A stretch of 64,000 nucleotides of DNA. Source: Candidatus Abzuiibacterium crystallinum (GTDB lineage: Bacteria; Omnitrophota; Omnitrophia; Omnitrophales; Abzuiibacteriaceae). Both the position numbers and the translations under genes were made by a program. The DNA lies in contig PCVY01000023.1 in NCBI GenBank assembly GCA_002787155.1, forward strand, positions 6,828 to 70,827, read 5' to 3'. Shown here one piece after another: positions 19,941 to 61,800 of the stretch. The notes beneath the pieces are model-generated. The model had not been told where the DNA came from. It did not search any database and worked only from the letters and a program-made list of their open reading frames with translations. Within the stretch, counting starts at the first letter, position 1. Each line of letters opens with the position of its first letter.

Positions 19941-19956
19941 ATCGAAGGGCTCAGGG

Positions 19957-20366: not shown

Positions 20367-20389
20367 GCGCGCGCGAGAGGAGAACGGCG

Positions 20390-21445: not shown

Positions 21446-21454
21446 ATTATTCAC

Positions 21455-23320: not shown

Positions 23321-23334
23321 ACACAGGACAACAG

Positions 23335-23946
23335 ATGGCGGTCAGACCCGAATCGCAAAAAATCGTTTTACAATGGGCTGTCAAAGAGAAAGTGGTATTG
23401 CACTTGTCTGTTTTGGCAGGGTTAATTGTTTTTGCAGCTTTCGCCGTGATAGGTCCGCGGATAGCTGATTTAAACAAACAAAAAGCAAAGTTAAAGGAGT
23501 TTAATTCTTTTTTACTGGGTACACAAGAAGCCGCGAAACGGCTGAGAAATCTAGAACAATTGCTCGCAGATCAGAGGCAGGCATTAAAAGAGCTCAACGC
23601 ACAAACGCTGAAACGAACTTCCATTGCTGCTATGCTGCAGAATTTTACGGCCGCTTCCGAATCACTGCCAATGACCATTTTGGACATCAGACCGGATGAG
23701 GCACCCGCGGTCAATGATCCAAAGGCCGTCGTGCCGGCCTGGAAAGAAAACGGCTTTGATCAAAAGTTATTGAATATTCATTTTCAATGCCGGTACCAAA
23801 CGCTGGGTCGTTTACTGGAACGCTTAGAAGAAACACCTTTAATTTATCATGTCACTAAACTTGAAATGGGGACCAAGGATTTAATCGCACCTAATTTGGA
23901 CATTTCATTAACGTTAGCTTCTTATGTGGAAAATTCACCTCACTAA
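23335..23946 (+). CDS. pilO: PilO-like inner-membrane pilus alignment protein
   Basis: 203 aa with an N-terminal TM and coiled coil. Called by position between pilMN and pilP. Confidence 0.5.
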   Translation: MAVRPESQKIVLQWAVKEKVVLHLSVLAGLIVFAAFAVIGPRIADLNKQKAKLKEFNSFLLGTQEAAKRLRNLEQLLADQRQALKELNAQTLKRTSIAAMLQNFTAASESLPMTILDIRPDEAPAVNDPKAVVPAWKENGFDQKLLNIHFQCRYQTLGRLLERLEETPLIYHVTKLEMGTKDLIAPNLDISLTLASYVENSPH

Positions 23947-23955
23947 GCAGATACC

Positions 23956-24489
23956 ATGGCACTCAGCAAAAAAGATAAAATTCAATTAGGCATCATCGTG
24001 ATGATGGTCGGACTGATTATTTTTAAATTGCCGGACTTCGTGCGGTTCGTGAGCGGTACCACACAAAAAGCCTCCTCAGGCGTTCCAAATGCCTTACCGG
24101 CACTGCCCGAGAATGCGCCCGATTTTTTGAAGGCCATGGTCATGCAAGTACGCAGCGGCACCGCTCATCCTCATTTCAATTTAACGCAAGAGCGGGCTCT
24201 TAGAGAACAGCAAGCGCTTCTCAAAGAACAATCCTGGGGAAGAGATCCGTTTTTTTCGATCCCCATTGATGAATCGCGGTCCAAAAAAATCGAAGTCACC
24301 GACAGCTCCGAATTGGTTCTCAAAGCGATCTCATTAAAAGGCACAACCGCCATGGCCATTATTAACCAAACGGTCATTCATGTCGGTGATGAAATTTTGG
24401 GAATGACTGTCAAATCCATTGAGCGCGGTCGTGTGATTTTAGCGAACAGCGAACGCGAACGTGTTTTACGTTTTGGAGGCATGACATGA
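23956..24489 (+). CDS. pilP: PilP-like lipoprotein/alignment protein
   Basis: 177 aa with an N-terminal hydrophobic segment and a C-terminal beta-domain 'GTTAMAIINQTVIHVGDEILGMTVKSIERGRVIL'. Confidence 0.5.
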   Translation: MALSKKDKIQLGIIVMMVGLIIFKLPDFVRFVSGTTQKASSGVPNALPALPENAPDFLKAMVMQVRSGTAHPHFNLTQERALREQQALLKEQSWGRDPFFSIPIDESRSKKIEVTDSSELVLKAISLKGTTAMAIINQTVIHVGDEILGMTVKSIERGRVILANSERERVLRFGGMT

Positions 24490-31701: not shown

Positions 31702-31800
31702 ATGTTCATCCCTAAAAATATCCAGAGAGCCATAGCCTTTTTTCTTGCCATTTCATTCTCTTTATCGAATGGCCCAACGCTTTTACTTGCCGAAACTTAT
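31702..31800 (+). other. N-terminal signal-peptide-like / signal-anchor segment of the giant protein
   Basis: 'MFIPKNIQRAIAFFLAISFSLSNGPTLLLAETY': positively charged n-region (K5, R9), a 12-aa hydrophobic core, possible cleavage at LLA|ETY. Confidence 0.45.
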
Positions 31801-43800: not shown

Positions 43801-46800
43801 ACCATGGAACAACAGTGGCAGGAACTTTTTAAAATCACCGAAAAAGGAATTCCCAATCTTCAGAAACCGGAACATTTAAACGGCGCGCGCGCCGAAGATA
43901 TTTTGGCGGGTCTGGCAGAAATTTCCAAGACGTCTCAAGGACAACTCAAAGAAGTGGTGGCTGAGCTCATCCAGGGACGGTTTAAATTGCTGGTGAATCA
44001 CGATGTCGAACGGTTTAAACAAATTGGCATCATCATTGGTTTTACGGGGATTGACGGTTTTGCAAAGATTCCGTTCGGCCGCTTGCGGGAAAAATATCAT
44101 CTGACCGAAGGCAGTGAAGAGGAAGGCCGGCTGCTCAAAATCGTTGCCCAAATTTCCAGAACAGCCCGGGAAGGGACAGGCGGCCTCATTGAAGAAGTGT
44201 TTGATCTTTACAGCCAAGAAGCCGGCGAACATTTGGACGATTTGAACAAACTGCTTCAGGCATTTAGTTACTTTGTGCGGCTTGTGAATTTTCACCACGA
44301 TTATGAACGGCTTGTCTTAGAAGGTGATATCGGCAAGGTGAACAATGAAGCGCTCTTTGTCAGCTTGCGGGATTTGAAGCGCACACTTGATATCGTGAAG
44401 AAAAACGATGCCAAAGGGATGGACATTCGCGATGCCATTGCTTCTGCTGTCAAGCGCCGCTATTACAACCGCTTGAGCATCGAAGATCGGGGTATTGTTC
44501 GTGATTTAATGGCGAGACACCGGCTGATTCATGAAAACGATCTCCTGGATTTTGATTATGTGATTGATGGTTTCAAAAACGGCAGTTCCCGAATTCGTAT
44601 CTATCGCAAACGTAAATCAGGCCCGGCGCGGTTTAAACGAACGGAAGTCAAGCCCGGCGAATATAAGATGGAATTAATTCAAGAAAGCGTGGGAAAACCC
44701 GAACTGCTGCTCGAGATTCCGCTGGCTCAGCCGCTTGCCAACGTTGACCCGAAAATTATTTTAAACGAAACGACCCGCCGTAACCTGGCCAATATTCTGG
44801 ATGCATTGGAAGTGGAGGAGGGAAAGCGCTTTAATCCGGTGCTCGAATTTGGCGTGACTTCAGGCGGCAAAAGTACGACGGCAGCGTTGGTTGCCAAGAT
44901 TCTGGGCGTTGGTTTTACGCGCATTCAAATCAATGAACGCACCGATGAATTTGACCTTTTCGGATCGTTTCAGCCTTATGAAATCAATATCACGTTAGAA
45001 GAAGCCATCCAGCTTTTGCAGGAAGCGCTGGCCACGAACAATTATAACGGTCTTGAGGATGTGTTTAGTCGTTTAAAGTCGGATCAAACGGGACAATTTT
45101 GGGAAAATTATTTCAATGCTCAAGAACGACAGACAATCGAGCTTGGAAAGGACAGCCGTTATCCCCAGCGTTCGGTATTGGAGCGTCAACGAGCCGCCAT
45201 TCGTGATAAATTAAAACAATTGGCGGATAAACAGTTAGAACTTGCTCAATCGCTCAAAAGTTTAAGCGCTCAGGAACGCCGCCTCATTGATTCCAAGACA
45301 GATAACCCTGTCTGGCAAGCGCAGCTTGCCCAGCTGCGCCGGGAAGAAGCGGAAGGTTTTGATCAGCTGAACCGCATCAAATCCATTGCATTTATGTTAA
45401 ACCACGAGGTGGGCCTTCGGTATAAGGAAGGGCGTTTTCTCACGGCTTACAAGCGCGGAGATCTCATTCTGCTTGATGAAGTGAATTTAGCCAACGAAGA
45501 AATGCTGGGCGTGCTTTATCAATTACTCACTTTGGGTTATTTGGAATATAACGGCAAAGTGATCGAACCGCCTTTGGGCAAACAAGCCCGCATTCTAGCC
45601 ACGGCCAATCCCTCCGGTTATGCGGGCCGCAGACGCATGAGCGAAGCTTTTATGAACCGTTTTGAAATTATCCATGTTGATGAAATGACGGATGAGGAAA
45701 TGCGCGATATCGTGGTTGGGCAAATGATGAAAGATCTCATCGCCTCAGGCCGCTATACAGCCGGGGATTTTGAACAAAACTCGGATGAAGCGCCGGAAGT
45801 ATGGGATAAAAAAATCAACAAGATTTTACAGGAAGAATATGGTATTACGCGCGAAAGCACTCGATTGTTAGCTGGAGTTCAGCGAAAATTTAACAGCATT
45901 TTGGCGACGGGCAGTTTTCCGCGCATGGGATCCGACTCCAATTATGTCTTCACGCTTCGGAATCTTCAACGGATCGCCGGCGATGTGAAAGAACGCAAAG
46001 AAAATGGCGAACGCATCACCCTTGAAACCTGGATTCGGGAAGCGTACGGCGAATATGCCGGCGTCCTCATGCGGCCCAGCACACAGCCTTCCTACACCGC
46101 AGAGCGGCTTAAGCCTGATGAATCATTGCCGGCGGAACATCATTTATGGGATGATCCGGATTACAAAACCATTCGGCGGGTATTTACGACTTTCATGGGT
46201 GAATTGATTGCCGGAGAAAGTCATCAAAGTTACGATGACGCTTTTGACGAACTCATTCGCCGGCATTTTGAAACCATTCCGTATGTCTATGACTCAACCG
46301 CCCATGCCATCAAGCTGGACGGTCTTCTTACCCAAGGTGCTGAGCCAAACGATCAAAACCCCATTGAACCTTTAATCGAAGTGGGGTCAACCAAAATGGT
46401 TCAAAGGCAAATTTTAAAAGGCATTCGCCGGAATATCCCAACGCTCCTTGTCGGTCAATCCGGCGGCGGTAAAACAGAAATCATCGGCGACTTAGTCAAT
46501 CGCCTTGGCCGTCAATATATCAGCGTGTCTTTGGGCGATGCCACACTGGAAAGTCTGATCGGCACCATGGAATACAACCGAATGGAAAAACGTTTTGTTT
46601 ATCGGCGGGGTGTGCTCGTCAAAGCCATGGAAGAAGGTTCGGTTTTGGTGCTGGAAGAACTCAACATGGCTAAATCGGGCATATTAGAAATTTTGAATGA
46701 ATATTTCGATGACGGAACGTTTACCAACCCGTTTACCCTAAAACAGGTAGCGGTACACCGTGACTTCCGGTTGTTCGCTACCATGAACCCGATTCAGGGT

Positions 46801-49800
46801 GAGACGGGAGAAAATTTAGGCCGCGTGAGTTTGTCGCCCGCTCTCAGAAACCGCTTTCGGGAAATTTGGGTGCCGCACAAGAAAACGGACGCTGAAATGA
46901 ACGAAATTTTAATCGGAAAATTCAAGCAATTGGGTGTTGAAAAAATCGAAAAAGCAACAGGCGCCAAAATCATCGGCTTTTTCCGTGCCTATGAAGAGGC
47001 TTTTAAAGATCAAGCTGATCCGGTGTATTACACCAGTCTGCGCGATTTGAATCGGATTGCCAAAATCATGGCTTATTTAATCAATGAGCTCGACATGCAT
47101 GAGTCGGATGCATTGGCGCGCGCCATTGACCGCGTTTACCGTTTACGCATGCAAAACAGCGGCGCCTTGGCAGTGGTCGATCAAATTCTCATTGAGCTTA
47201 AAATCAAGATCCCGGGTGCCGGTCAATTGTCGTACCAGTCTCGGAATGGCGTCTTGGAAGTGCGCGATGGTCAAACACTGGTTGCCAAATTAGACCTTTC
47301 TTTGATACAGGCCAAGCTTCGCGACCGCATCCGCGGAGAACTCAGTGCTGATACGGATCCGGCAGAACTTGAAGCACTGACAGAGAAGCGTCTAAAAACT
47401 CTCTTGGATGAAGCTGTCTTGGTAGAAAATCCGCGCACGAAGGCTCATCTGCTGGATTTAATGGAAGCCGTCACGCTTCCTTCCGGCGAAGTGAAAAAAG
47501 GAAAATTTAACCCGATTTTTCTTTTGGGTGAGACCGCCGGCGGGAAAAGCTCCCTTACCAAATATTTGGCACTCCATCTTTTGGGCCAAAACTATACGCG
47601 CATTCAATTCAACGAACGCACGGATGAGTTCGACCTTTTTGGCGCCTATGAACCGCGCGAGCTTCACATGGGTCTGGACCGCGCTTTTCGGATTGTTCAA
47701 AATGCGATGGAACAAGGGGAGTGGGTCAAAATCAAGAAAGCCTTGAAGCTTTGGCAAACGGGGGCATTGACCGAAGATGATCTGTCCGAACTTGAAATGA
47801 TTGAGAAGGTGGAAGAGCGCATTCGCACGGTAGATTTAGAGGCCTCTCAACAGATCACAAAGATCTTAAAGGATGCTTCCGAGGAAGATGTCTTAGGTGA
47901 CCCCGGTCAGAAACGTGAAGCCGAACGCAAACTCAAAACCATTGCGTTTTTGATTGAAAATAACATGTTAAATGTCGAGCTGGAATTTCGCGAAGGCAGG
48001 TTATTACAGGCGATCAGGCGCGGCGATGTGGTGGTGCTGGATGAAATGAACCTGGCGAATGAAGAAGCGCTCGCTGTTTTATATCAACTCCTGACTCTGG
48101 GTTATGTGGAGTATTACCACAAAGATACCCGGCAAGTCGAACGCATTACCCCGGCACCGGGCTTTAAACTCATGGCGACCGCAAACCCCGCCTCATATGC
48201 GGGTCGTCATCGGTTGAGTGAAGCCTTAATGAACCGGTTTGAGATTCATTATGTGATGAACATGACACCCCAAGAAATGACCGAGATTCTGCGCGGTGAA
48301 AATAGTCATGAACCAGTGTTCGAACGCGATCAGTCATTTCAGACCACTGTTGAGAAACTGACATTGCTTCAAGAAAATATCAATGAAGCGCTCCGAAACG
48401 GTCAATTTCCCGAAGTGAGTTCCGACCAAGTGCAAGGCTATTTATTTACGCTTCGCAATTTGAAACGTGTTTTACGGAATACAGCAGAACTCTTACGCCA
48501 AGGCGACAGTTCGCCGCCATCTGAGTCACTCATTCGACAAGCCTACCTTGAATACTTAGGCGTCCTCGGACGTTCAGACGCCTCCATCAAAACGCTGCAG
48601 TCTCTTTTCAAAGCGCCAAAACAATTTCCCCAATTTAACCCTGATTTTCGAATTTCCTTTGAGTCAATGACTATGCCCAACGGTCAATCGGGTATTTTAG
48701 CGGGTGGTTTCAAAGTCGTGAGACGTTTTTATGAAGATGAGGCAGAAGGCGTTTCGCACGATGCAGATGTCATTGAAGAGCTTGAAGAGGGTGCAACGAC
48801 TAATTTGATCCGCCAAGCAATTGCGAAAGGACTGTTAGATTCTCGGATGGCGGTTTTGCTGGTGGGGCAAAGCGGCGGGGGTAAAACAGAAATGATCGGT
48901 GATTTAGCAAGGCGTCTGGGCTGGCGCTACCGCTCCGTTTCGCTTGGTAATGCCACCCTGGAGAGTTTAGTCGGCGGTTATGCCATGGACCACGAAACAA
49001 AAAAATTCCGTTATATCCCCGGGATTTTAATCCAGGCCATGCGCGAAGGCGCCATTTTGGTTTTGGAAGAAATGAATATGGCACCGTCCGGACTATTAGA
49101 AATTCTGAATGAATATTTTGACGAAAGTACCTTTACCAATCCCATGACGGGACAGAAAGAAAAAATTCATCCCAATTTTCGGTTATTTGCCACCATGAAT
49201 CCGGAAAAAGGTGTGACGAGTACCAGCGAAGGCCGTGTCGGCTTGTCGCCCGCTCTTCGCAGCCGTTTCTCAGAAGTATGGGTGCCCCATATACGGACGC
49301 AGGCGGAAACAGAGAGAATTATTCGTAAGAAATTCAGCAATCGAGGGGTAAGCCATGTACCGCCCAAAGTGACGGAAGATATTTACCGCGTCTATGACCA
49401 ATACCGCCGGTTTGTTGAAGAAGGCAAAATTGGCCAAGAAAGCAACGAAGGCTATTACGTCGGTTTGCGTGATGTGGTGAAAATAATTGACCTGGTAGCG
49501 CAGGATCAATCGCGCGGCATTCCAATGGAAGAAGCGCTGCGTTTTGCCTTCAAACGAATTTTTTATTTACGCCTCAATAGCGATGCGGACCGCAAAACAG
49601 TTCAAGAAGAGATTCTAAAAACATACGACATGAGCAAGACGGAATACCAATGGAAAAGTGTGAATGACCATTGGGTGGTTAAGCGCACTCAGTGGCAAAC
49701 GGCAGAAGTTCCGAAGGCACTTTTGAAGGAAAAAGGATTTATTTTAACGCCGCAAAGCCAAGAAGAGCTCGCGCTTCTGCTAGAGGCAATGCAGCGCGGC

Positions 49801-52800
49801 GTGACTATTCAGGGCAAAGCAGCCGCGCGTTCCTTTAATCCCATGATGCTGTTTGGTGAGACTTCCGGAGGAAAGTCTACCTTGGTTGAAATTGCCGCCA
49901 GTATTTTCCGGACCCCCTTTACCCGTATTCAAATGAATCAACGAACCGATGAATACGATTTGTTGGGCAGTTACCATCCTGTTGAAGTGAAGTTGACATT
50001 TGAACAAGCCTATGAAGTCGTTCAATCGGTTATTCGCCAAAATCAAACACTGCGTACCGCACAAGTGCTGCGGGCTTTACACATCACGGATGATCACGTG
50101 AAATCGGTTTTGCGCATAAACCCTGATCAAACGATGCCCTTAGAGCAGCTTCAAAAGCGCTTTTTAGAAGAACATGTTTTGGCAAATGCACGGCAGGGAA
50201 ATCCCAAGAGCATTGAACAAATGAAAGATATCGGCGCACTCCTCTTGAACGGCGTTGCCGGCATTGAACTTATTTTCCGTGAAGGCATGCTGCTTCAGGC
50301 CATGGGCGACCGTGAAACCGGTCGACCGGGTCAAGTGGTTCTGTTGGATGAATTTAATTTAGCCAATGAAGAAGCAATCGGCATTCTTTATCAACTGCTA
50401 ACGCTGGGATATATCGAATTTCAAGGGCGGAAAATCTTTCCCGGTAAAGGGTTTCAATTAATTGTGAGCGGCAACCCTTCCCGCTACTCGGGCCGAAGGC
50501 GGATGAGTGAAGCTTTTATGAACCGCTTTGAGATCTTGAACCGTCCTTCAATGACCAAAGAGGAAATGGTTAAAATCTTGACGGAGAAATATGCTTTAGA
50601 AGCATCGGGGATTTCGAAATCCGGCATCGAAGCCCTGGTTGATTTGCAGTTCGACATCGAAGAAACGGCTCAGTCCATCGGTTTTGACTTTTTCAACCAA
50701 GATAACACGTACCGATTTAGTTTGCGGAACTTGGAACGTATTGTGCAGGATTTGAAAAAACGGATGGAAGTGGAGCCCGAACGTTCCGTGCAAGTCATGT
50801 TGCGCGAAGAGGCCTATTTAGAATATGCCGGTTTGCTTTCACAGTCCACCGATGAGGATGATCCGAAGAAGAATAATTTGAAAGTCTTAGCAGGTCTTTT
50901 TAAGAAACACTTCAATTGGGAGATCGATCCGGAAACGGTTTTACCCGAATTCAAGAAGCAGACGCTTGTTAAAGGAGAAGACGAATGGATTTCCTTAAAC
51001 GGGGTGCGTGTGAGAAAACTCTCACCGCATCAAATGTTAGAGAGTTTGCAGTTGGAATTAAATGAAGAAATCAGAAGCGGCGCCTTGGCAGATGATGATG
51101 GCGGAAAATTAGTGCTTTTAACAGAGGCGAATCTTGTGCGCATTTTAGCGCAGGTAGAAAAACGGCTCGCCAGTCATGATCCGCTTTCAAGAAAAGAAAT
51201 CATGCGCGAGGAAGCGCGCACGGAATATCTTAAGATGCTGGGGGAATCGCCTCGTTTGGTCAAGCGCTTAGACGAACTGATTAACCAGCATTTTTATACT
51301 CAAGCCGAGCGCATCGAGCCTTTGGTAGAACTCAAATCAACACGTTTGGTGCGCATGCAAATTTTAAAAGGCTTCCGTGACGGCGGCGTGATTCGTTCTC
51401 GTGATACGGAAGGACGGGAGGTTTTGAATCATCGTTCGCAGCCCGTGCTTTTAGTCGGACAATCGGGCGGCGGTAAAACCGAAGAAATTGCCGATGCGGC
51501 CAGGGAGCTCAACCGGCCTTATATTTCGGTGGCGTTGGGTGCGGCGACCATTGAATCGTTAATCGGCAGCTTTGTGCTGAATAGCGAAACGGGCACTTTT
51601 GAATTTCGAAAAGGGATTATGGTGCGCGCGATGGAAGAAGGGAGCGCGCTCACGCTCGAAGAGCTCAATATGGCGGAAAGCAGCATTATCGAAGTGCTGA
51701 ATGAATATTTTGATCGAGGAACGATGACGATTCAAGAGCGGAATGTTCCCATCCGCATTCATCCCAACTTCCGCTTGTTTGCGACAATGAATCCGACCGA
51801 AGGCAGAACCGGCAGAAATGCGGGACGTATCCCGCTGTCTCCTGCGCTGAGAAGCCGGTTTCGGGAAGTCTGGGTCCGCAATGAACGCAATAAGGGCGAA
51901 CAATACCGCCTCATGTTAGGCGGGATTCACGCGCTTGTTTCTTCTTTAATTACAAGAGGTCTGCCGGAAGATAGGCCGGATGAATTGGAAAACTTAGAGC
52001 TTGATTGGACACGCCGAAGATTGGCTGAGACCGCCGGGCAGCAGGTGCAATTCGCAAGCAGCGAGTCATTGTCCGCCGCATTAAAGGCGGGTCCGTCCAT
52101 TACACTGCCTCGCCATGACAGTTCAGCTATCCGCATGGCCAAAGCATCTGAAGACGGAACGCCCAAAGAAAAACCCACATCAAAGGAATGGGAGCGTATG
52201 GCTATCAATGAAAGAAAACGCATTTATGAAGAACAGTTTCGGATTGTGAGCCACGGCATCATGAACATCATGTCTTCCGATGAAGCCATCGAGTTAGGCC
52301 TATCAAGAGATGGAAGCCATCATTGGGCGTATGCACCTAGTATCAATACATTAATTTATAACAGCCGGGAAATCATGACTTTGAGCTTGGATGCGTTAAT
52401 CGGTGTCGGCGTTCATGAATCGATGCACCGTTACGGCACCCGGTATACGTCTCTTTTTGCAGACTTTTTAGATGCACAGAGTTTGGCGGGCAGTTTTTTT
52501 AATATTTTAGAAGACGGACGCATTGAAAATTGGGCACGTTATCGATTCCGGGGCGTGGAGCGGCCGCTGCGCACACTGAATGATGAAATTATTTTTGATT
52601 TTGAAGATGATAATGAAATGGTTGAGCGCATGATTAAAACTTCTAAAGATGGTAAAGACATAGGTCATGCCGGTGCCATCGGTAATTTCTTTCTTTATCT
52701 CGCAAAACGCGGATCAGATCCGGGCGCCGGCAAAGTCATCGAAAAGTTCTTAAAAGCGTTTGAAGAAAGAGATCCGGCTTTGAAAGAGGATATAGAAAAT

Positions 52801-55800
52801 CTCATGCAAGCCGGCTATTTTGGCGGTGCCAGAGACGAAGATATTATTGATGCGGCACGGCAGCGCAAAGCACAAGGCGTTTTTTCAGCTATTCCAGTCT
52901 CGCCTGATGATGTGGGTGTTTATCGTGTGGATCCCAATCCTTCGGAAGAAACAATTTTGCAATTGGCCATTCACCAAGGTATTTTGATTCGCGATTTTAT
53001 CATGCCCGTTGTTTACAAATGGGCGGTGCTCCAAGCCGAAGGCGAAGGAAGCGGGAAAAGCGGTTCGGGCGGCGCGCCGGGTAGAGGGAAAATCGTCATT
53101 CGGCCGGGCAAACCCGGCGAAGAAAGCACGCCTATTTCACCGCGTGAGTGGAAAAAAATTTGGGATTCATTATCTGAAAATGACAAAAAGAAAATTCTGG
53201 ATACGCTGGATGATCTCAAGAAAAAAGCCCAGGACCGCACAGCCAAAGATTCTATCGATCATAAGAACGCCGCCATCGATGCGGAAATTACCGAACCTAA
53301 GAGCGAGCGCGACCGCTTGATGAGCCAAATGGGCAAGATGATTCATGAGTTGGCAGGATATCTGAGAGATCTTATTCAAAATACGATTCGGCCCAAAGAA
53401 ATTACCGGCCTCAAAAAAGGCCGTATCGACGTCCGGCGTCTCATGAACGCCATGGCGCGCGGTTTTACCGACATGCGTTTTTACAAACAGCGCATCATCC
53501 CTGACAAAAAGGATATCAAATTTACCTTAATCATTGATGAAAGCGGCAGTATGGCAGGGATGGGTGAGTCCGGCAAAGGTCCTGAGGACAATGCGGCAGC
53601 CAAAGGTTACCGCACCTTAATGGGCGCCGCCCTATTAATGGAAGTCCTTGAAACTTTAGGCATTGATTTTGCAGTCCGTGGTTACGGGGATGACACTTTT
53701 CTGCATAAGCGATTTAAAGGACAGCGTATCGAACTATCCGATCAGCGCGCTCACTTTCCGCCGGTGCCGGATGGTTATGCCACACGCAAAGAAAAAGATA
53801 CTTTAATCGATGACTTATACGGTTCTATCGGTAACCATGGCGGCAACAACGAAGGGCCGGCGCTTCAAGCCGCGATTCGGGATATCTTAAAGGCAGGCGG
53901 TGAAAAACATTTTGTCATCGTGATTACCGATGCGATGGGTGACACCAAAGCCATACAAGAGATTTTAGACGAAGTCAGAGCTAAAAAAGGCATGATTGGT
54001 TCCACACAAACCGAGTTCATTGCCATTGGTTTGGGTAATGATACGGAATCGGTGCCGGAGGTCTACGGCAGCGAACACGGATTTTGGCTGCATGATGACG
54101 AAGTCCACAAACTGCCTTCCGAAATTAAAAAGCTGCTGCAAAACGTGATCCGCGGTGTTTATGCACCCGGCAGCGGAACCCCCAGCCGTTTTTCACAGTT
54201 CGGCAAACGGATGACTGATAGTGCTTCAATGGCGGGTGCGGCGGGTGTCGGTGCAAGTACTGCTTCTGCTTCGAGCGCAGCCCGCTCGCACTCAGAGCTG
54301 CGTGCAGATGATTTGGAGTCAAAGGTGCGGAAGATCATTATTCGCTTAGCGCGTTCCCAAGGCGATGGTTTATCTGCTGAACAAGAGCACACGGATATGC
54401 TCAGGCGGTTAGGGGTGCTGGCCAATCGAAGATCACCAGAGGAAGTTTTTGAAATTGTGATCGAAATGATGGCAGACGAGACAGTTGGTTTTAGTCGAAA
54501 AGAAAATGCGATTCGCCGCGCTATCATGGAAGCGTTTCTGAAAGAACTGACACCATCGGCTGTCCTAACCTCGAGCGCGATTAATGAGTTACAAGATTTA
54601 ATGCACACTTTAGCCAGGGAAGCCCACTCACCGGAGGCTCAAGCAGAAATTGACGTGATCAAGAGTCGCATCAAAGAGCTCAGGCTTAAACTGATCATGC
54701 GTCAAGAGGTCTTTACTTATGCCAAAATCACCCAACTTTTGTCTCTCGATCCCTCTGAGACGGTTGATTTATTTCTTGAATCTCTTTTAAGCGGCGATTA
54801 CAGCTCGGGAGTTGATCGTAAAAGAATGGCTAGTAATTTTGGAAATTTGATCTCAAACCTAAACGGCGAACTATTGTTGCAAACAACCGAGCAAATCATT
54901 GAAGCTATCCGGACAGATCCTCGAGCTCACATTGATCCTTATGAGAACCTTGAGAAATATGGGTCAAAGATAGCTTACGAACGACATTCGATTCTGTTGG
55001 AAGGTTTATTGGTGGCTGTGAAAAAGGTGGATCGTTCTATATTGCAGTCAATTGTTGATTGCATGGTTCAAGACTTGCAATATGAGAGGAGCAAGAAACT
55101 CAAGGCGGAAATTTTAGCTATTGCTTTGTTGCGTCAGGAAAATATTATTACTACCAATCCATCTCAAGAAGAAAAAAGTCTCATTAATGCATTAGTAAAC
55201 TTGCCGGGACGTTCCACTTTTCAAACCAGTGATCTAAAAGAAATAACGCTCATGTTGCAGCATGCCAAACCAAAACGAGGGCGCCTGTCAAGCCAAGCCA
55301 TTAAAGTCCTGAGGGAACAGATTAAGAATTTTGATGAGCAAATCAGAGCCCGGGCAACACGCGCACAAAATGAAAATGAACAGCGTTCTGAAGACAATTT
55401 GTTGCCTCCGGATACTGAATCTGAGCTTTGGTTAGAAAATCCTCGCGCGGAACTCCGTACCGAAAATGATGGCAGCAGACGTGTCGATCAATTGTTAAAA
55501 GAACTTCAATCGATTCAGGGATCAAGCGATGAAGCGAATCGCATCAGGCGCGACATTGGGCGGGCTTTAAAGAAGACGGTGGAAGAAAATGCAATCATTG
55601 ATCCCTCTCACGCTGCCCAAGTTCTCATCTCAACGCTTCATCAAATCAAAGGGTCAAACGCCGGGGCTTATAAAGCCAAAGAAGCCATCGGATGGGCGCT
55701 GGCCGAAGTAGCCAAAAAAATTGAAACAACGGAACTTCCCAAGATTTCTCAAGCTTTTATTTCGGTTCTTGAAGCAATAGAAGGATCGAGTGCTGCCGCC

Positions 55801-58800
55801 ACTAATTTGAGATTAAACGCTGCGTGGATGCTGGACGGAACCGCTCAAAGAATTGATTTAACCGAACTCCCTGCCATTTTCCAGGCGCTCATTTCAGCAC
55901 TTGGTCAATTAAGAGGGTCAGATGCCGGCACCAGGAATGGCAGAACAGATTTTGGCTTTGTGCTTACCGATATCGTGTTTCGTTACCATCAGCTTGCTCC
56001 TTATTTAGAAAGCAGTGAAAGTGAGTTACATTCAGCAATGAGAAACCTGATGACAATGCTTTCCTTTTCCGATGATGTTCCTCTTTTTCCTCGATATGGT
56101 GACTGGGACACTCTTCATCAAATTTTTGAGATGGGGGATTCAAAAAAAATTATTCAAAACTTAAAGAAATTCCGGGAACAAATTTTTGCACAGTATCAAA
56201 GGGAACAGAGATCAGGGGACAGGGAACAGGGGACGAGGGACAGGTTACAGGACACGGGAACAAATGAAACCCTTTGGACGGCGGGGGTTGCCGGCAGCGT
56301 GAGTGCGGGAGCTTTCGTTCCCGCTGCCCGCAGTGAGCTTAGGACCAAAAATTATTTTCGAACGGCAGTTGATAAATTATTAAGAAAACTTAGATCCATG
56401 AGAGTTCATAGATTATTAAGAGAACTCAAAGGATTAATTGGTAATACAACGTCTGATGCCCATTGGGCAAGATTGGACATTGCCGGCGCCCTCATAAGAA
56501 TATCAAAAAAAACTGATTCAACGGATCTTCCCGCTGTTACACAAGCCTTGTTTTTAGTACTCAGTACAACTGAAAGATCATCTTCTCTTGGTCTTGAAGA
56601 GGAAAGAAGGTTAGGTGTTTTTCGTGCATTAAGAGAAATATCAAAAAGAATTGATTCAGCAGAGCTTTCCGCTATCTTACATGCTTTGTTTTCAGTCTTA
56701 AGAGAAACTAAGGGATCATTTGTTTCTGCTGCTTATGAAAGAAGGGCCATTGCCAATATATTCATAGAAATATCACGAAGAATTGATCAAACAGAACTTC
56801 CTGCCATGATGCAAGGCCTGCTGAGCGTTCTTCTGGAAGTATTTGAAGATTCAGGTTCTGCGGACCATGATGCAATAGAGGCCGTTGCCGGCGTATTAAA
56901 CGAAATTTCAAAAAGAATTGATCAAGCCAATCTTCTCAATTTCACGCAAGCTCTGCTTTTAGCGCTAAGTGAAATTAAAGGATCAAATCAGGATGCCAGT
57001 ACGGCAAGAACAAAAATTGCCATCGTATTAAGGGAAATATCAAAAAGCATTGCTGACACGGAACTTCCTACCGTCACCCAAGCCCTGCTTAAAGCGCTAA
57101 ATGAGAGTGAAGGATTCGATACGTATGCCAGTGATGCAAGAGCGCAAATTGCCGTTGCATTAGAAGAAATATTAAAACGCATCGATGAAACAGAACTTCC
57201 CGCTGTCGCCCAAGCTCTGATTTCGATCTCGAACAAATTTAAAAGCTTAGGTTATAGCTTTTGGCCAAATTCGACCATTCAAGAGGCTCTTGCTGTTATT
57301 GTCTTTCGTCATCATCAAATGCCTGTTACAGATGAAACAAATGATTTATTGAGCGCTCTTCAAGATGTCTTTACACTTGAAATGAACGGTGTTTCCATCT
57401 ATCCCATAGAAAACCATCATCCGTTGAACAACCCAGACAACCCCATTCATCAAATCTTTAAACAACATGGTCAAGATCACGCACAAATCATGAGCCAACT
57501 CAATCGTTACAGGGAACAATTGAGCGCACAGCATCAAAGGGAACAGAGATCAGGGGACAGGGGACAGGGAACAGGGAACAGCTTGCCGGATCAGGATTCG
57601 CTTTGGGCAGCGGGAGTGGGTTTGGGTACTTTCTTGTTCACTGCTCGCAACGAACTTAGAAACGGATGGTTGGCTGAGCGGGGACACTATCTTGTTCACC
57701 GCTTTGTTCACATGGTTTATGGGATCCGGATTAAATTTAGAAAGAAAGATCATATTACCGAAAGAGTGCTTGCGCTCATTAACGAACTTAAATCATTAAA
57801 AGGATCTGGCCCGGATGTTGTTCAATCCATCACGGATCTTGCCACTTCATTAGTCGAGAATTTAAAGCACATCGATCAAAAGGATCTGCCTTATGTGCTA
57901 GATGTGCTTCTTTCAACTCTCAAACAAATCAAAGGCTCAGATGATCGAGCGACCGATGCGCGAGTGTGGATAACAACTGTATTGGGCACAATGGTGGATC
58001 GCCTTGATAAGAAGGAACGGACTAAACTGGTAAAAGAATTCCTTTCCATTTCTCGACAAATGAAAGGAACCATGGTGAACAACATTTTTGTTTGGACCAA
58101 TATCTTGCAAACGTTTGCGGCCATGTTGGCATATCTGGATGATCATGAGCGTCCCTTGATTATCGAAGAGTTGGTGACAGCTCTCAAGGACATAGAAGAT
58201 CCTACTGGGAATGCGGATCTGATTCGCAAAAATATCAGTGAAACTTTAAGTATTTTCTTCTTTCATCGCCATGGTTATCCTGATCTGGAAAATAAAGATC
58301 CGCTATTTGTTGCTTTAAAAAAGCTTTTTGGAGCAACACAAAACGCTGTTTCGCTCTTCCCGCGTTATGGTGATTTAACGGAAGTAGACAGGATTTTACA
58401 ACTTGAAGACCGTGAGAAAATTATTTCTCAACTTAACGCTTACAGGGAACAATTGATGGCACAGTATCAAAGGGATCAGAGATCAGGGAACAGGGATCAG
58501 GTGTCAGGGGATGGGGGGCAGGGATCAGGGAACAGGTCGCAAGATATGAACGATGATCTTTGGTTGGTCGGATTAGCCGGAGCGGCAGCTGTTCATCGGA
58601 CCGAATTAAGAGGCGTCGAGTCGCTTTTTAGGCAGTTGATTAATCTTGTTCGCTCAGCACTTGGCCGCAAGCAGCCGGCCGGCTCGTTAAAAACAAAACT
58701 TCATGCGCTGATCGGCATGCGGACCGAGGAGGCACATCAACAACGTGCATCACTTTTGGTGCAGCTTAAAAATGAAGTGTCTTATGCAAGCCTCAGTGAA

Positions 58801-61800
58801 CTGACAGTCATCATTTCTGTTCTCTTCGATTTAATAAAGGCATATGAAGATTCAAGCCAAAGCGAGCAGGCGCTGATCCGGTCGATTTTCAAAAAGGTGA
58901 TTAAACGTCTTGATCAAACAGAACTGCTCCATCTGAGCCAACGCTTGTTAGGTGTTTTCCAATCGATGGATAGTTCCGAATATTTGGCGCATCAAGCCCG
59001 AGAATCGTTGGTAAAAGCTTTTATTGCGGTCACGCAAAACATTGATTACTCAGCTTTTCCGCGCGTGATTGAAATCATGCTTAATTTTGCGCAATCACGT
59101 GAGCTGCAATATGATATCGGCGGCACACGTGGGGAGCCGGCAAGGTTAAGATTTGAGTTGGCACCCGCTCTCGCGGCTATGGTGAAGCGTGTTCCGCGAA
59201 ATAAGCGTCTTCAAACCATTCAATTTTTGCTTGATCATCTTCGTTTGATGGCTCAAACGTACGAAACCGTGAATATGGGTTCAGAGATCGTCCGGTATTC
59301 GTTGAATGAGATAACAGAGCAAATGGATTCCCGCGCGTTGCTTGATCTGACTCAATTATTATGGCGCACATTGGAATTACTGGAAGATTCAAGCAGGTCT
59401 GCCTTTGATGTGAAGTTTAGGATTCTTTATGTTTTGGATGATGTGATAGGGAAAGAGGCCGAAGTAAACTCTAGCCGTTTGACGGAAGACTGGCGTCACA
59501 GGATTGATCAATTGATATCGTATTTACGTCGGACACCTAATCACAAGAGAGATACATTTGATATCAGATGGATGGTCAGACGGATTTTAATGACCATTAC
59601 CTCAAAACTTGAGGGGCCTAGACTTAACGATGCTGTTGCCGGGCTTTTAGATCAACTGGAGTCTATCCATGACTCTGATGATGTCAGTAACGGCGCCAGG
59701 CAGGTGATAGCGGATGTTTTGGCTAAAGCCGTTCATGGTTATGATAAGGCGTTATTGTCTCGTGCGGCATCCGTGCTTTTTGAAACGTCAAAATTAATTG
59801 TCACGCAAAATCAAGAAGCCAATCAAGCAAAAGCCGCATATGGAAAAGTATTAGTGGAAATTGTTTTACGGCTGGATGAATCCGCATTGTCTGCCCTGGT
59901 AGCGCCTCTCGGGCAATTACTCGATTCCGTTATCCCTATACACAAAGATAGAGTGATTCAGTACGAGAGAGATTCGCTTGGCGCAGCTTTATCAATTGTT
60001 ATTTTGCGATTACACCAGATTAATTTTCATTATGTAAGAGATCCCAGCGCTTATCCAGATCCCAATGATTATATTGATTTTTTACAATATAACATCGCAA
60101 TGCTATTTAACCTCTATATCGAAGACCCTTCTTTTTCCGCGCAGACTAAATGGGATGCCATTGAGCAATTCACTCGAGATGTTATGGGTGACGATCAAGT
60201 GCTTCCGGAAGCAAAGCGCGAGGCCCTGATGGGAAAAATTGGCACATACCGTGAACAGTTGGATGCTGCTTACAAAAGGCATCAGTCCGAGGAAGGCGGC
60301 AGCCAAGACACCGGCCCTGAAGTCCAGGATGAACCGGGCGATTCGCTTTGGTTGGCACGTGCTTCTACCGGAAAGTCAGAACTCAGGGAGGATGCGCTAA
60401 GTCGGATGACAGAGAATCAGTTATTTGATGCATTAATATCCATATCATTTCATGACGACACAACCATTTTTCATCGTTATGCAGGTCCTTTGATATGGGA
60501 ATTGGCCGCAAGGGTAAGGCGTATTAAGAACCCGCTTAGTCAGGAGGTTTTGCTTCAGATGGTGCCAAAACTCCTGGAAGTTTACTTGAGGCATAAAGTT
60601 GTTGAGGAATGGCTTGATCAATTAAGGCAGGAAATCGATCATACACTCAGCGACATTGCCAAACGGTTAAAAAATCAAGAACGTACAGAAATGTTGAAGA
60701 TGATTTTGGATTTCTTGTATTCATTCCCAGGCGCCGGGGTTGAGCTGAATCGCGTCCGGGTAACTGCGGGAGACGTTTTGCGGGAAATCGCAAGAGGCAC
60801 TGATGCCGAAGAACTGCCTGATTTATTAAATTCGGTTTTATCCATTTATCAAGCAATCAAAGGATCAGACAGAGATGCCAATCAAGCCAGATGGAGAATG
60901 GGAAGTGCGTTAAAAGAAATCGCTAAACGTATTGATTCATCCCAATTACTTCCCTTGGTTACACCTCTTTTGGATTCTCTTTCACTGATGGCAGATCCAA
61001 GAGACCCGTCAAGCGCGTACGCAAATACGGCATACCGCACTGTTGCCAATATTTTAAGAACCATCGTGAAACGCATAGATCCCCATCAACTGCCTGAAAT
61101 AAAAGCGCCGCTTTTAGGTGCGCTGACGCATATACAAGGCGACACCGAAGCTGCGCGTTTTGCACGGGGTGATATTAGCAGATTGCTTGCGGAACATTAT
61201 TTACGCTCACATGGATTAGCCTTAAGCGGACGCGGGGGTAATTTACTCAAAGCTTTTGCGGATGTTTTTGCGGCCGCATCACCGGACGGAATATCGGTAT
61301 TTCCTCTCTATGGTGATCAAAAAGAAATTGATCGTCTTTTTCAAAGTGCCGCAGACAAAAATGGCCGCATAGCACCTCAAATGCGTCAGCAACTCATTTC
61401 ACAACTTCAAACTTACCAAGAACAATTAATCGCCGCGTATCAAAGGGATCAGAGATCAGGGAACAGGGATCAGGGGACAGGGAACAGGTCACAAGACACG
61501 GGAACAGATGAGACGCTTTGGGCGGCGGGGGTTGCCGGCAGCGTGAGTGCGGGAGCCATCGCGTCCGCGGCCCGCAGTGAACCATCGACTCGCAGCGAAC
61601 TGCGCTCAAAAGATTATTTCCATCAGGCAACAGAGAACTTGCTGCGCGAATTGGCCGCGCTTCAAGGGTCTAGCGATGATGTCAATCAACGCAGGAAATG
61701 GATGGCGGATGCGCTGGACGGAGAGGTTATTAAGAGAGTACAGTCTTCGATGCTTCCCGTGTTTTTATATCCGCTCCTCCGCCAGCTTGATGCGATTGAA

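What the first reader, a model, noticed from the sequence alone, without database searches (positions are those of the whole stretch)
53430..54100. CoxE-type VWA domain with an intact MIDAS motif downstream of the AAA block completes a midasin-like domain order
'IKFTLIIDESGSMAG' gives DxSxS, with later Thr and Asp ligands. The upstream 'GRIDVRRLMNAMARG' matches the MoxR-associated (CoxE-like) VWA subtype. In midasin the C-terminal MIDAS domain docks back on the AAA ring to pull substrates. In bacteria MoxR and its VWA partner are separate proteins. Here AAA x6 and the VWA sit in the same polypeptide about 1.5 kb apart.
Basis: partly seen in the sequence, partly recalled or inferred. Interest (0 to 1): 0.8.

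Follow-up and report, generated by a model that had tools for sequence, protein, structure and literature searches.

The report
Bacterial giant protein with midasin-like core
An 11,500-residue protein of an uncultured Omnitrophota bacterium carries, in one chain, a six-module AAA+ ATPase ring, a zinc-protease-like domain and a metal-dependent adhesion (VWA) domain. This layout is otherwise known from eukaryotic midasin, so it bears on where that machine came from.

Summary
The VWA domain is real, but its MIDAS site is not fully canonical. Both quoted peptides lie in one open frame (31702 to beyond 63999, at least 10,766 aa; 11,497 aa on a fuller contig).

Pfam VWA and VWA_CoxE hits are below threshold. 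An exhaustive search found 167 relatives. Their profile hits midasin MIDAS domains best in the PDB (E=4e-24), then CobT. An AlphaFold model matches only VWA folds, with the best TM-score to human MDN1-MIDAS.

MIDAS residues D7279, S7281, S7283 and D7410 are invariant. The canonical Thr is Asn (N7382), as in most Omnitrophota orthologues checked.

Upstream lie six AAA_5 modules, all with Walker A and B. They form three A-B pairs, preceded by a displaced lid. Like Rea1, alternate modules carry helix-2 inserts.

The fusion is not unique. Related Omnitrophota, Elusimicrobiota and archaeon-labelled proteins have two or six AAA modules fused to HExxH-VWA. Stand-alone HExxH-VWA genes sit in operons with AAA_5 genes.

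Best reading: a single-chain MoxR/midasin-type remodelling machine. It is not a midasin orthologue, because no linker or D/E-rich region was found and the VWA is not C-terminal. I found no paper describing this.

The parts
31702..63999 (+). One giant ORF. It has at least 10,766 aa in the window and runs off the 3' end. The same gene is called as 11,497 aa on JGI contig Ga0210009_1000088.
   Evidence: Stop-free frame 31699-63999. First ATG at 31702. 15 public contigs carry the neighbouring gene, and the downstream gene is called as 11,094 and 11,497 aa. Orthologous giant ORFs occur in 9 Omnitrophota species representatives.
31732..31788 (+). N-terminal hydrophobic segment (aa 11-29), resembling a signal peptide or membrane anchor.
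   Evidence: Kyte-Doolittle scan: one of only three 19-residue windows above 1.6 in 10,766 aa.
34009..42141 (+). N-terminal array of helical repeats (aa ~770-3480).
   Evidence: Self-BLAST shows many internal matches, including matches to the C-terminal array. No Pfam family.
44269..44781 (+). Displaced B-type AAA lid (small domain) ahead of AAA1 (aa ~4190-4360).
   Evidence: aa 4201-4446 match aa 5901-6114 at 31% identity. The lid motif '...SLRDLKR...VKRRYYNRL' aligns with the lids after AAA2 and AAA4 and is missing after AAA6. Weak Pfam hit to the midasin AAA_lid_5.
44782..46386 (+). AAA1, A-type: Walker A GVTSGGKS at aa 4384, Walker B LILLDEVN, and an insert of about 140 aa between them.
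46387..47451 (+). AAA2, B-type: Walker A GQSGGGKT at aa 4918, Walker B VLVLEELN. Compact module.
   Evidence: Pfam AAA_5 E=3.6e-22..
47452..48798 (+). AAA3, A-type: Walker A GETAGGKS at aa 5276, Walker B VVVLDEMN, with an insert.
   Evidence: Pfam AAA_5 E=4.8e-17 in two stretches..
48799..49791 (+). AAA4, B-type: Walker A GQSGGGKT at aa 5722, Walker B ILVLEEMN.
   Evidence: Pfam AAA_5 E=1.1e-28 and weak midasin AAA_lid_7. Aligns contiguously with Rea1 AAA1, AAA3 and AAA5.
49792..51396 (+). AAA5, A-type: Walker A GETSGGKS at aa 6052, Walker B VVLLDEFN, with an insert.
   Evidence: Aligns contiguously with Mdn1 AAA2, including the insert region.
51397..51981 (+). AAA6, B-type large domain only: Walker A GQSGGGKT at aa 6586, Walker B ALTLEELN. 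It has no lid of its own.
   Evidence: Pfam AAA_5 E=1.6e-22..
52249..53031 (+). HExxH domain (aa ~6850-7110): HESMH at aa 6905-6909 (nt 52414-52428) and NILEDGRIENW about 30 residues later. Resembles a gluzincin metallopeptidase.
   Evidence: An HExxH motif lies 150-700 aa upstream of the VWA in 89 of 107 relatives. H, E, H, N and D are invariant in an 18-sequence alignment. The profile's best PDB hits are the minigluzincins MJ1213 (E=0.004) and projannalysin (E=0.12). No Pfam, NCBIfam or PADLOC family.
53032..53346 (+). Charged, low-complexity spacer rich in K, G, E, S and D (aa 7111-7215).
   Evidence: Sequence and composition. Relatives have similar, often longer, charged spacers.
53347..53517 (+). 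VWA 'finger' / MIDAS-loop segment (aa 7216-7272), which includes GRIDVRRLMNAMARG.
   Evidence: Aligns with the Rea1/Mdn1 segment just before the first strand (profile positions 3-57). Pfam VWA_CoxE partial hit covers aa ~7235-7286. AF2 pLDDT is below 50, consistent with a flexible loop. The role of the equivalent element is described in PMC6624252 and PMC13036017.
53518..54171 (+). VWA core (aa 7273-7490). MIDAS residues: D7279 (53536-53538), S7281, S7283, N7382 (53845-53847, in place of Thr) and D7410 (53929-53931).
55099..63999 (+). C-terminal array of the same helical repeat family (aa ~7800 to beyond 10766).
   Evidence: Self-BLAST: aa 3202-3398 match aa 10568-10766 at 73% identity, and aa 3205-3470 match aa 8401-8654 at 59%. 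No Pfam family.

Best explanation
The flagged segment is the VWA (MIDAS) domain of a single-chain MoxR/midasin-class AAA+ machine. It is embedded in an 11,497-aa protein of a Candidatus Omnitrophota bacterium.

Shown by the analyses:
- One reading frame encodes, in order: a displaced AAA lid; six AAA_5 modules arranged as three A-B pairs, all with Walker A, Walker B and Arg-finger motifs; an HExxH gluzincin-like domain; a charged spacer of about 100 aa; a VWA domain with an N-terminal 'finger'; and long helical repeat arrays on both sides.
- The VWA has D-x-S-x-S and the (S/T)D Asp, but Asn in place of the MIDAS Thr.
- The nearest relatives of the VWA are bacterial HExxH-VWA proteins encoded next to AAA_5 genes, together with fusions carrying two or six AAA_5 modules.

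Inferred from how Rea1 and NorQD work:
- The six modules close into one ring, with the upstream lid packing on AAA1.
- The finger docks the VWA into the ring pore against the helix-2 inserts.
- The MIDAS metal (Mg2+ or Mn2+) binds an acidic residue of a target protein.
- ATP hydrolysis pulls or twists that target, and the HExxH domain may cut it.
- The repeat arrays act as scaffold or reach.

The protein works like midasin and is its closest kind of prokaryotic relative in sequence. It is not a midasin orthologue. It is best seen as a mega-fusion of a bacterial AAA_5 + HExxH-VWA (+ HEAT-like repeat) operon.
For: Architecture.

VWA identity:
- 167 relatives, which pass the Pfam VWA and CobT_C cut-offs.
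- Family profile against the PDB: midasin 4.4e-24, CobT 1.3e-21, NorD 1.9e-9, integrin I-domains about 1e-10.
- AF2 core pLDDT mostly 75-90, pTM 0.75.
- Foldseek returns only VWA folds. Best TM-score is to human MDN1-MIDAS 8ql1 (0.58/0.66).

MIDAS columns.

AAA block: midasin 1e-86 against NorQ 2e-8. Best single module scores about 65-70 bits to midasin against 34-40 bits to NorQ.

Alternation shared with midasin:
- The B-type module aligns contiguously with Rea1 AAA1, AAA3 and AAA5, but in two pieces with AAA2, AAA4 and AAA6.
- The A-type module aligns contiguously with Mdn1 AAA2.
- Rea1 AAA2L, AAA4L and AAA6L carry H2-alpha inserts, and AAA6S is absent (PMC6286127).

Finger-in-pore precedent: PMC6624252 and PMC13036017.

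Operon origin:
- L015/L016: an AAA_5 gene overlaps the start of the HExxH-VWA gene.
- L019: VWA gene, then a HEAT-repeat gene, then an AAA_5 gene.

Fusions with two or six AAA modules occur in other lineages. Orthologues are conserved in 9 Omnitrophota species representatives.
Against: - No experiment or full-length model shows that the six modules close into a ring, or that the VWA docks on it.
- Asn in place of the MIDAS Thr could weaken or change metal binding.
- The window protein itself is below Pfam gathering scores for VWA (20.3 against 23.8) and VWA_CoxE (16.1 against 26.4).
- The N-terminal signal-like segment, with basic residues before it, would by the positive-inside rule put the bulk outside the cytoplasm, where ATP is lacking.
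- The peptidase assignment of the HExxH domain rests on a marginal E=0.004 hit, and the AF2 model of that domain failed.
- More than 3,270 aa follow the VWA, so tail geometry must differ from midasin.
Confidence: 0.65

Rival explanations
1. True evolutionary kin of midasin. The single-chain six-AAA ring with alternating insert-bearing modules, the missing terminal lid and the finger-bearing MIDAS domain would be homologous as a whole to eukaryotic midasin. In that case the concatenated ring predates eukaryotes, or came from such prokaryotic proteins.
For: - Midasin is by far the best solved match for both the ring and the VWA.
- The alternation of compact and insert-bearing modules is shared.
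- The lid permutation parallels the absent AAA6S of Rea1.
- The 'Rea1-specific' MIDAS loop is conserved in the bacterial family.
- A 4,005-aa relative with six AAA modules, HExxH and a C-terminal VWA is labelled Thermoproteota archaeon.
Against: - The register is shifted: A-B-A-B-A-B here, against compact-insert-compact in midasin.
- Six-module arrays seem to arise repeatedly in this family. Relatives have only two AAA modules, and P0042 has three near-identical pairs.
- The HExxH domain is absent from midasin.
- No similarity to the midasin N-terminal domain, linker or D/E-rich region was detected.
Confidence: 0.2
2. Eukaryote-to-bacterium transfer: the core is a captured midasin gene later decorated with bacterial repeats.
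For: High similarity to midasin. JGI names one short relative 'midasin'.
Against: - The closest relatives of the VWA are about 130 stand-alone bacterial HExxH-VWA proteins in AAA_5 operons.
- There is a graded series of one, two and six AAA modules in prokaryotes.
- All six sites keep Walker B, whereas Rea1 AAA1 and AAA6 lack it.
- No midasin linker or D/E-rich region was found.
- Identity to midasin is low (tens of bits per module).
Confidence: 0.03
3. The VWA is a metal-independent or structural adhesion module that does not cooperate with the ring. The adjacency would be a by-product of accretion of domains in a giant adhesin-like protein.
For: - The MIDAS Thr is replaced by Asn.
- Omnitrophota giant proteins are thought to act in adhesion and predation (PMC10066038).
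- There is an N-terminal signal-like segment.
Against: - D, S, S and D are invariant across the family, and 'GGNNEGPAL' is itself conserved among orthologues, which indicates selection on this loop.
- The finger segment that mediates ring docking elsewhere is conserved.
- The order AAA_5, HExxH, VWA recurs in many lineages and as operons.
Confidence: 0.1
4. Assembly or gene-calling artefact: several genes falsely joined into one frame.
For: The source is a metagenome-assembled genome. Some orthologous loci show shorter ORFs (L006, L008, L010).
Against: - A 32.3-kb frame without a stop cannot arise by chance.
- 15 public contigs from several sources (Logan, ENA, JGI and NCBI among the four shown) carry the neighbouring gene, with the downstream gene called as 11,094-11,497 aa.
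- Orthologues run stop-free through whole 20-kb loci.
Confidence: 0.02

Closest known systems
Midasin (Rea1 / Mdn1 / MDN1), eukaryotic ribosome-assembly AAA+ mechanoenzyme
   Same: - Six AAA_5 modules in one chain.
- Alternate modules carry helix-2 inserts.
- The terminal lid is missing and is replaced by an element N-terminal to the ring.
- A VWA/MIDAS domain downstream of the ring has an N-terminal extension and loop that (in Rea1) enters the ring pore.
- It is the best PDB sequence match for both the ring and the VWA, and the highest TM-score match for the VWA model.
   Different: - The register of module types is shifted by one.
- All six sites keep Walker A and B, whereas Rea1 AAA1 and AAA6 lack Walker B.
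- There is no ~1,700-aa linker and no D/E-rich region, only a ~100-aa charged spacer.
- An HExxH domain is inserted between ring and VWA.
- The MIDAS Thr is Asn.
- The VWA is not C-terminal.
- About 4,200 aa lie before the ring and about 4,000 aa after the VWA, made of helical repeats.
- The host is a bacterium, where (from general knowledge, not tested here) Rsa4/Ytm1-type ligands are not expected.
Two-component MoxR-class AAA+/VWA systems (NorQ/NorD, CbbQ/CbbO, CobS/CobT, CoxD/CoxE, RavA/ViaA)
   Same: - AAA_5 (clade 7) modules with helix-2 inserts.
- A VWA partner with a finger that binds in the pore.
- CobT, CobS, NorQ and NorD are the next-best solved matches.
- Stand-alone relatives of this VWA sit in AAA_5 operons.
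   Different: In those systems the ATPase is a homohexamer of a separate protein. Here six modules of two types and the VWA are one polypeptide, and an HExxH domain is added.
Unnamed family of HExxH-VWA proteins (500-800 aa), annotated only as CobT_C/VWA
   Same: Same HExxH...N..ED.R domain, charged spacer, finger and VWA. They are the closest relatives of the flagged segment outside its own orthologues.
   Different: They are separate genes next to AAA_5 genes, and most keep the MIDAS Thr.
Omnitrophota giant proteins (West-Roberts et al. 2023 preprint; Seymour et al. 2023)
   Same: A giant ORF in an Omnitrophota genome, preceded by a locus resembling type II secretion / type IV pili.
   Different: Those papers discuss adhesion and cell-wall degradation. 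AAA_5 appears only in a supplementary legend. Midasin, VWA and MoxR are not mentioned.
FtsH-type AAA proteases
   Same: An AAA+ module and an HExxH metalloprotease in one chain.
   Different: Different AAA clade, a homohexamer, an M41 protease fold, and no VWA. This is an analogy only.

Membership tests
VWA fold / MIDAS-containing domains | Rossmann-like alpha/beta fold of the VWA type | tested here: met
   The AF2 model (pTM 0.75, core pLDDT mostly 75-90) matches only VWA structures in the PDB, with 252 hits at E<=1e-3.
VWA fold / MIDAS-containing domains | Pfam VWA (PF00092) gathering score | tested here: not met
   20.3 bits against a cut-off of 23.8, E=7e-4. Relatives found by exhaustive search do pass.
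VWA fold / MIDAS-containing domains | Full MIDAS consensus DXSXS...T...(S/T)DG | tested here: not met
   DESGS and T-D-A are present, but the Thr position holds N7382. Consensus as quoted in PMC6624252.
VWA_CoxE (PF05762) | Pfam gathering score | tested here: not met
   16.1 bits against 26.4. Only profile positions 20-71 match, which cover the finger and the first strand.
CobT_C (PF11775) | Pfam gathering score | tested here: not met
   No hit for the window segment even at E<=10. Stand-alone relatives pass. CobT is the second-best PDB match of the family profile.
Midasin | Six concatenated AAA_5 modules forming one ring | tested here: met
   Six Walker A / Walker B modules. Ring closure itself is inferred.
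Midasin | MIDAS domain with N-terminal extension and loop, placed downstream of the ring | tested here: met
   The profile aligns from 57 positions before the first strand to Rea1/Mdn1.
Midasin | Long helical linker (~1,700 aa) between ring and tail | tested here: not met
   Only about 510 aa separate AAA6 from the VWA core, and this stretch holds an HExxH domain. Neither the profile of that domain nor the flanks match midasin in the PDB.
Midasin | D/E-rich region before the MIDAS domain | tested here: not met
   No 500-aa block exceeds 16% D+E. The spacer is about 100 aa and rich in K, G, E, S and D.
Midasin | MIDAS domain at the C-terminus | tested here: not met
   At least 3,270 further residues follow in the window.
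Midasin | Binds UBL domains of Rsa4/Ytm1 in pre-60S particles | not testable with these tools
   This is a eukaryotic nuclear pathway.
MoxR-class AAA+/VWA system | AAA_5 module above Pfam cut-off with helix-2 insert | tested here: met
   AAA_5 E values from 1e-9 to 1e-29. The insert follows the 'RTDExDLxGSY' motif in A-type modules.
MoxR-class AAA+/VWA system | Functional link between the AAA_5 ring and a VWA partner through a finger | tested here: inconclusive
   The finger segment is conserved and aligns to Rea1 and NorD. Operon linkage is seen in relatives. Docking was not modelled.
Zincin (gluzincin) metallopeptidases | HExxH plus a downstream acidic third ligand, in a zincin fold | tested here: inconclusive
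   HExxH and N..ED are invariant. The best PDB hit is a minigluzincin at E=0.004. The AF2 model was unusable, with pLDDT 38.
Known anti-phage defence systems (PADLOC), incl. MoxR-vWA ternary systems | Match to a defence-system model | tested here: not met
   No PADLOC hit for the HExxH-VWA part and only chance-level hits for the AAA part. The Pfam bpMoxR hit is weak, at E=0.0034.

The most novel reading that the evidence does not exclude
Prokaryotes already possessed single-chain, six-module AAA_5 rings built from three A-B pairs. These rings had a permuted lid and a finger-bearing MIDAS domain. Eukaryotic midasin, and through it the dynein ring, would descend from such a protein, rather than the six-fold concatenation arising 'early in eukaryotic evolution' (the view stated in PMC3495828).
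Probability: 0.2. Interest if true: 0.85.

Novelty: new variant of a known kind. Interest (0 to 1): 0.62.

Why it matters
Rea1 and dynein are described as a special subclass of AAA+ proteins because their six modules are concatenated in one gene (PMC6286127). The concatenation has been placed in early eukaryotes (PMC3495828).

This window shows a prokaryotic protein, and behind it a family in Omnitrophota, Elusimicrobiota and an archaeon-labelled genome. The family shares with Rea1 the concatenation, the alternating module types, the lid permutation and the VWA finger.

That makes the origin of the midasin/dynein ring testable with a module-level phylogeny. The family also contains natural intermediates: one AAA module in an operon, two fused, and six fused.

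It also gives the first concrete mechanistic handle (an ATP-driven puller, perhaps a protease) on one of the otherwise unannotated giant proteins of Omnitrophota. Public annotation currently says only 'AAA family ATPase'.

Tried and rejected
- Word-indexed homologue search with the VWA segment found nothing, not even the protein itself. With family profiles it found only 9 hits and then 2, all proteins of 410 aa or less. The AF2 alignments were therefore shallow.
- An exact-match search for the window's 3' end in species-representative genomes found nothing. The last ~730 aa of the protein were not examined.
- The family alignment A1 was too diverse for the search for related loci. A 4-sequence alignment worked.
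- AF2 of the HExxH domain gave pLDDT 38 and was discarded without a fold search.
- The phmmer domain table for the whole AAA block against midasin was not collinear, because the query is repetitive. It was replaced by single-module queries.
- The flanks (aa 3480-4383 and aa 7491-7900) have no PDB sequence relatives.
- NCBIfam and PADLOC give nothing for the HExxH-VWA part.
- Literature searches for bacterial, prokaryotic or archaeal midasin, for 'midasin-like' with bacteria, and for COG5271 found no relevant paper. Garbarino & Gibbons 2002 is not held. The Cavalier-Smith 2020 text is truncated.
- Considered and rejected: a eukaryotic contaminant (the neighbours are bacterial T2SS/T4P, Psd and PssA genes), and a defence system.
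Full report
**What is at the coordinates**

The window holds one stop-free frame from 31699 to its 3' end (10,767 codons). An ATG lies at 31702. GRIDVRRLMNAMARG is at nt 53419-53463 (aa 7240-7254) and IKFTLIIDESGSMAG is at nt 53515-53559 (aa 7272-7286).

The neighbouring gene is found on 15 public contigs; the four shown come from Logan, ENA, JGI and NCBI, the last being GCA_002781965.1. There the giant gene is called as 11,094 and 11,497 aa, so the window lacks about 730 C-terminal residues. Close orthologues (46-69% identity over the VWA) occur in nine species-representative genomes. Most are titled Candidatus Omnitrophota. They are mostly stop-free across whole 20-kb loci. The gene is therefore real, and it belongs to an Omnitrophota bacterium.

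**Is it a VWA domain?**

On its own the segment is below Pfam's cut-offs. VWA scores 20.3 bits (cut-off 23.8, E=7e-4). VWA_CoxE scores 16.1 bits (cut-off 26.4), matching only profile positions 20-71. A single-sequence search of PDB sequences puts a midasin MIDAS domain first (6qt8, E=0.006).

An exhaustive HMMER search of 1.84 billion representatives found 167 relatives at E<=1e-3. Stand-alone relatives pass the Pfam VWA and CobT_C cut-offs, and one passes VWA_CoxE. A 30-sequence profile of the family hits the following in the PDB:
- midasin, at E=4.4e-24 (Mdn1) and 1.9e-23 (Rea1)
- CobT, at 1.3e-21
- a mussel thread protein
- integrin I-domains, at about 1e-10
- NorD, at 1.9e-9

An AF2 model built with a shallow alignment has pTM 0.75 and a core pLDDT mostly between 75 and 90. 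Foldseek returns only VWA domains. The highest TM-scores are to the human MDN1 MIDAS domain (0.58/0.66, rmsd 3.9 Å). The domain is a VWA beyond reasonable doubt. Its subtype is the midasin/CobT kind rather than specifically CoxE.

**The MIDAS site**

In the family alignment D7279, S7281, S7283 and D7410 are invariant. The consensus quoted by Ahmed et al. is DXSXS-X70-T-X30-(S/T)DG (PMC6624252). Here the last element is T7409-D7410-A7411.

The Thr column holds Asn (N7382 in GGNNEGPAL). Most relatives have GG(S/T)T.D at this position. Eight of the nine Omnitrophota orthologue loci have Asn here, six of them within a GGNNEGPAL loop, and one has GGTNDS. A CobT-like subset has NDDG.

The substitution is therefore a conserved, selected variant rather than decay. 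It still means the motif is not 'intact' in the strict sense. Whether Asn coordinates the metal directly or through water was not tested.

**The ring**

Pfam finds six AAA_5 modules. All six have a Walker A (at aa 4384, 4918, 5276, 5722, 6052 and 6586), a Walker B, a sensor-1 Asn and an ..RF Arg motif.

The modules are of two alternating types:
- **A-type** (modules 1, 3, 5) have Walker A GxTxGGKS and Walker B LLDExN. They carry a predicted-helical insert of about 100-140 aa after the 'RTDExDLxGSY' motif. They are 32-36% identical to each other.
- **B-type** (modules 2, 4, 6) have Walker A GQSGGGKT and Walker B VLEExN and are compact. They are 42-56% identical to each other.
- A-type against B-type identity is 25-36% over shorter local alignments.

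A B-type lid (small domain) lies before AAA1, at aa ~4190-4360. It is missing after AAA6.

Against PDB sequences the block matches midasin at E=1e-86, while NorQ, CobS and CbbQ reach only 2e-8 to 3e-5. Per module, the best scores are about 65-70 bits to midasin and 34-40 bits to NorQ.

The B-type module aligns in one piece with Rea1 AAA1, AAA3 and AAA5 (42.5, 70.1 and 43.7 bits). It aligns in two pieces, split after Walker A, with AAA2, AAA4 and AAA6. The A-type module aligns in one piece with Mdn1 AAA2, insert region included (54.9 bits).

This fits the Rea1 structure. Only AAA2L, AAA4L and AAA6L carry H2-alpha bundles. [quoted passage not shown]

The alternation and the lid permutation are thus shared with midasin. 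The register is shifted by one: insert-bearing first here, compact first in midasin. Unlike Rea1, no site has lost Walker B.

Between AAA6 and the VWA there is a ~260-aa domain with an HExxH motif (HESMH at aa 6905-6909), followed about 30 residues later by NILEDGRIENW. An HExxH motif at this distance upstream of the VWA is present in 89 of 107 relatives that have enough upstream sequence. H, E, H, N and D are invariant.

The domain has no Pfam, NCBIfam or PADLOC model. Its profile's best PDB hits are the minimal gluzincins MJ1213 (E=0.004) and projannalysin (E=0.12). That is suggestive of a zinc peptidase, but it is marginal. An AF2 model failed (pLDDT 38).

A spacer of about 100 aa, rich in K, G, E, S and D, follows.

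Then comes the 57-aa segment before the first VWA strand. It aligns with the Rea1/Mdn1 segment known as the MIDAS loop. That loop is required to tether the MIDAS domain to the ring and is assigned to density in the ring pore (PMC6624252). The family-profile alignment to NorD begins within this segment (profile position 19). In the NorQD structures the NorD finger penetrates the NorQ pore and contacts the helix-2 inserts. The NorQD authors propose this mode is general for AAA+/VWA pairs (PMC13036017). In the AF2 model this segment has pLDDT below 50, in line with a flexible loop.

**The flanks**

Residues ~770-3480 and ~7800-10766 are arrays of one helical repeat family. Identity between the N- and C-terminal copies reaches 73%. 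They have no Pfam family. The non-repeat flanks have no PDB sequence relatives. No D/E-rich block exists. No counterpart of the midasin N-terminal domain, linker or D/E-rich region was therefore detected.

**Relatives and origin**

The 150 best relatives fall into three groups:
1. Orthologous Omnitrophota giants (P0001-P0003).
2. Other large proteins with the same order, AAA_5 then HExxH then spacer then VWA. Some have six modules: P0052 (7,557 aa); P0080 (4,005 aa, with the VWA at the very C-terminus); and P0042 (4,471 aa, with three near-identical pairs). Others have two modules: P0011, P0012, P0027 and P0048.
3. About 130 proteins of 500-800 aa without a Walker A, that is, HExxH-VWA alone.

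Public names for these proteins are generic. They include 'AAA family ATPase' (Omnitrophota; Elusimicrobiota; and, for P0080, 'Thermoproteota archaeon') and 'MoxR-like ATPase'. JGI names one short fragment 'midasin'.

Stand-alone HExxH-VWA genes sit in operons with AAA_5 genes:
- In L015/L016 a 1,054-aa single-module AAA_5 gene overlaps the start of the VWA gene.
- In L019 the order is VWA gene, HEAT-repeat gene, AAA_5 gene.

The giant protein therefore looks like a fusion of the parts of such operons. Six-module arrays seem to have formed more than once by triplication of an A-B pair.

**How it most likely works**

Shown: the domain order, the motifs, the homologies and the operon links above.

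Inferred by analogy with Rea1 and NorQD:
- The six modules and the upstream lid close into one ring.
- The finger holds the VWA on the ring.
- The MIDAS metal binds an Asp or Glu of a target protein.
- ATP turnover pulls or twists the target.
- The HExxH domain may cleave it.
- The repeat arrays act as scaffold.

One observation does not fit easily. The N-terminus looks like a signal peptide or anchor, yet ATPases need cytoplasmic ATP.

**Context**

Upstream genes include GspE/PilB, GspF/PilC, PilM, a secretin and a PEGA protein. This matches the report that Omnitrophota giant genes are generally preceded by a type II secretion-like locus (preprint 10.1101/2023.11.21.568195).

**Novelty**

The papers held on Omnitrophota giant genes do not mention midasin, VWA or MoxR. 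AAA_5 appears once, in a supplementary legend. A survey of huge proteins lists midasin only for eukaryotes.

Zhang and Aravind place the six-fold concatenation 'early in eukaryotic evolution' (PMC3495828). Searches for bacterial, prokaryotic or archaeal midasin found nothing.

The library is incomplete, and automatic pipelines already attach 'midasin' to fragments. I therefore rate this as a new variant of a known kind (MoxR/midasin-class AAA+/VWA machines), not as categorically new.

**Verdict**
The error is in calling the MIDAS motif intact.
- It is wrong on the CoxE label and on the uniqueness of the fusion.
- It is incomplete on the architecture.

Noticed in passing
window 52249-53031 (HESMH at 52414-52428): A conserved HExxH...N..ED.R domain lies between the AAA ring and the VWA. 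It has no Pfam, NCBIfam or PADLOC model. It is present in most relatives of the VWA. It shows weak similarity to the minigluzincins MJ1213 and projannalysin.
   Followed up: partly
window 44269-44781 and 51397-51981: A B-type AAA lid is encoded before AAA1, while AAA6 lacks its own lid. This is a circular permutation of the ring. It recalls Rea1, where AAA6S is absent and the N-terminal domain takes its place.
   Followed up: partly
window 34009-42141 and 55099-63999: The N- and C-terminal thirds of the giant protein are arrays of the same helical repeat family. Some copies are very similar across the two ends: aa 3202-3398 (nt 41305-41895) match aa 10568-10766 (nt 63403-63999) at 73% identity. 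This suggests recent duplication or gene conversion.
   Followed up: partly
window 31732-31788: The N-terminus (MFIPKNIQRAIAFFLAISFSLSNGPTLLLAE) looks like a signal peptide or membrane anchor. The protein nonetheless carries six ATPase sites, so the topology is unexplained.
   Followed up: no
window 9773-26147: A cluster resembling type II secretion / type IV pili lies upstream of the giant gene: GspE/PilB, GspF/PilC, small ORFs, a TPR protein, a ParA-like ATPase, PilM, a secretin, and a PEGA protein at 26265-27749. This matches the arrangement reported for Omnitrophota giant genes.
   Followed up: partly
window 1666-9716: Genes for an ammonium transporter, trehalose synthesis (OtsA, OtsB, DUF5752, TreT-like) and a ClC channel with CBS and TrkA-C domains.
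   Followed up: no
P0080 (NCBI MFC1753351.1): A 4,005-aa protein with six alternating AAA_5 modules, an HExxH domain and a C-terminal VWA is labelled 'Thermoproteota archaeon'. If the bin is clean, the midasin-like fusion also exists in archaea.
   Followed up: no
P0042, P0011, P0012, P0027, P0048: Relatives have only one A-B pair fused to HExxH-VWA, or three near-identical pairs separated by TPR-like repeats (P0042). These look like stages in building a six-module chain.
   Followed up: partly
L019 6001-11136; L015 3856-8962: Stand-alone HExxH-VWA genes are in operons with AAA_5 genes. In one case a HEAT-repeat gene lies between them, and a DEAD-box helicase gene follows.
   Followed up: partly
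L006, L008, L010: In three orthologous loci the ORF holding the VWA starts inside the locus, giving ORFs of 2,898-5,136 aa. This could reflect gene fission or frameshift errors in those assemblies.
   Followed up: no
window 53926-53934: The window protein has T-D-A where its orthologues and most relatives have T-D-G in the (S/T)DG element.
   Followed up: no
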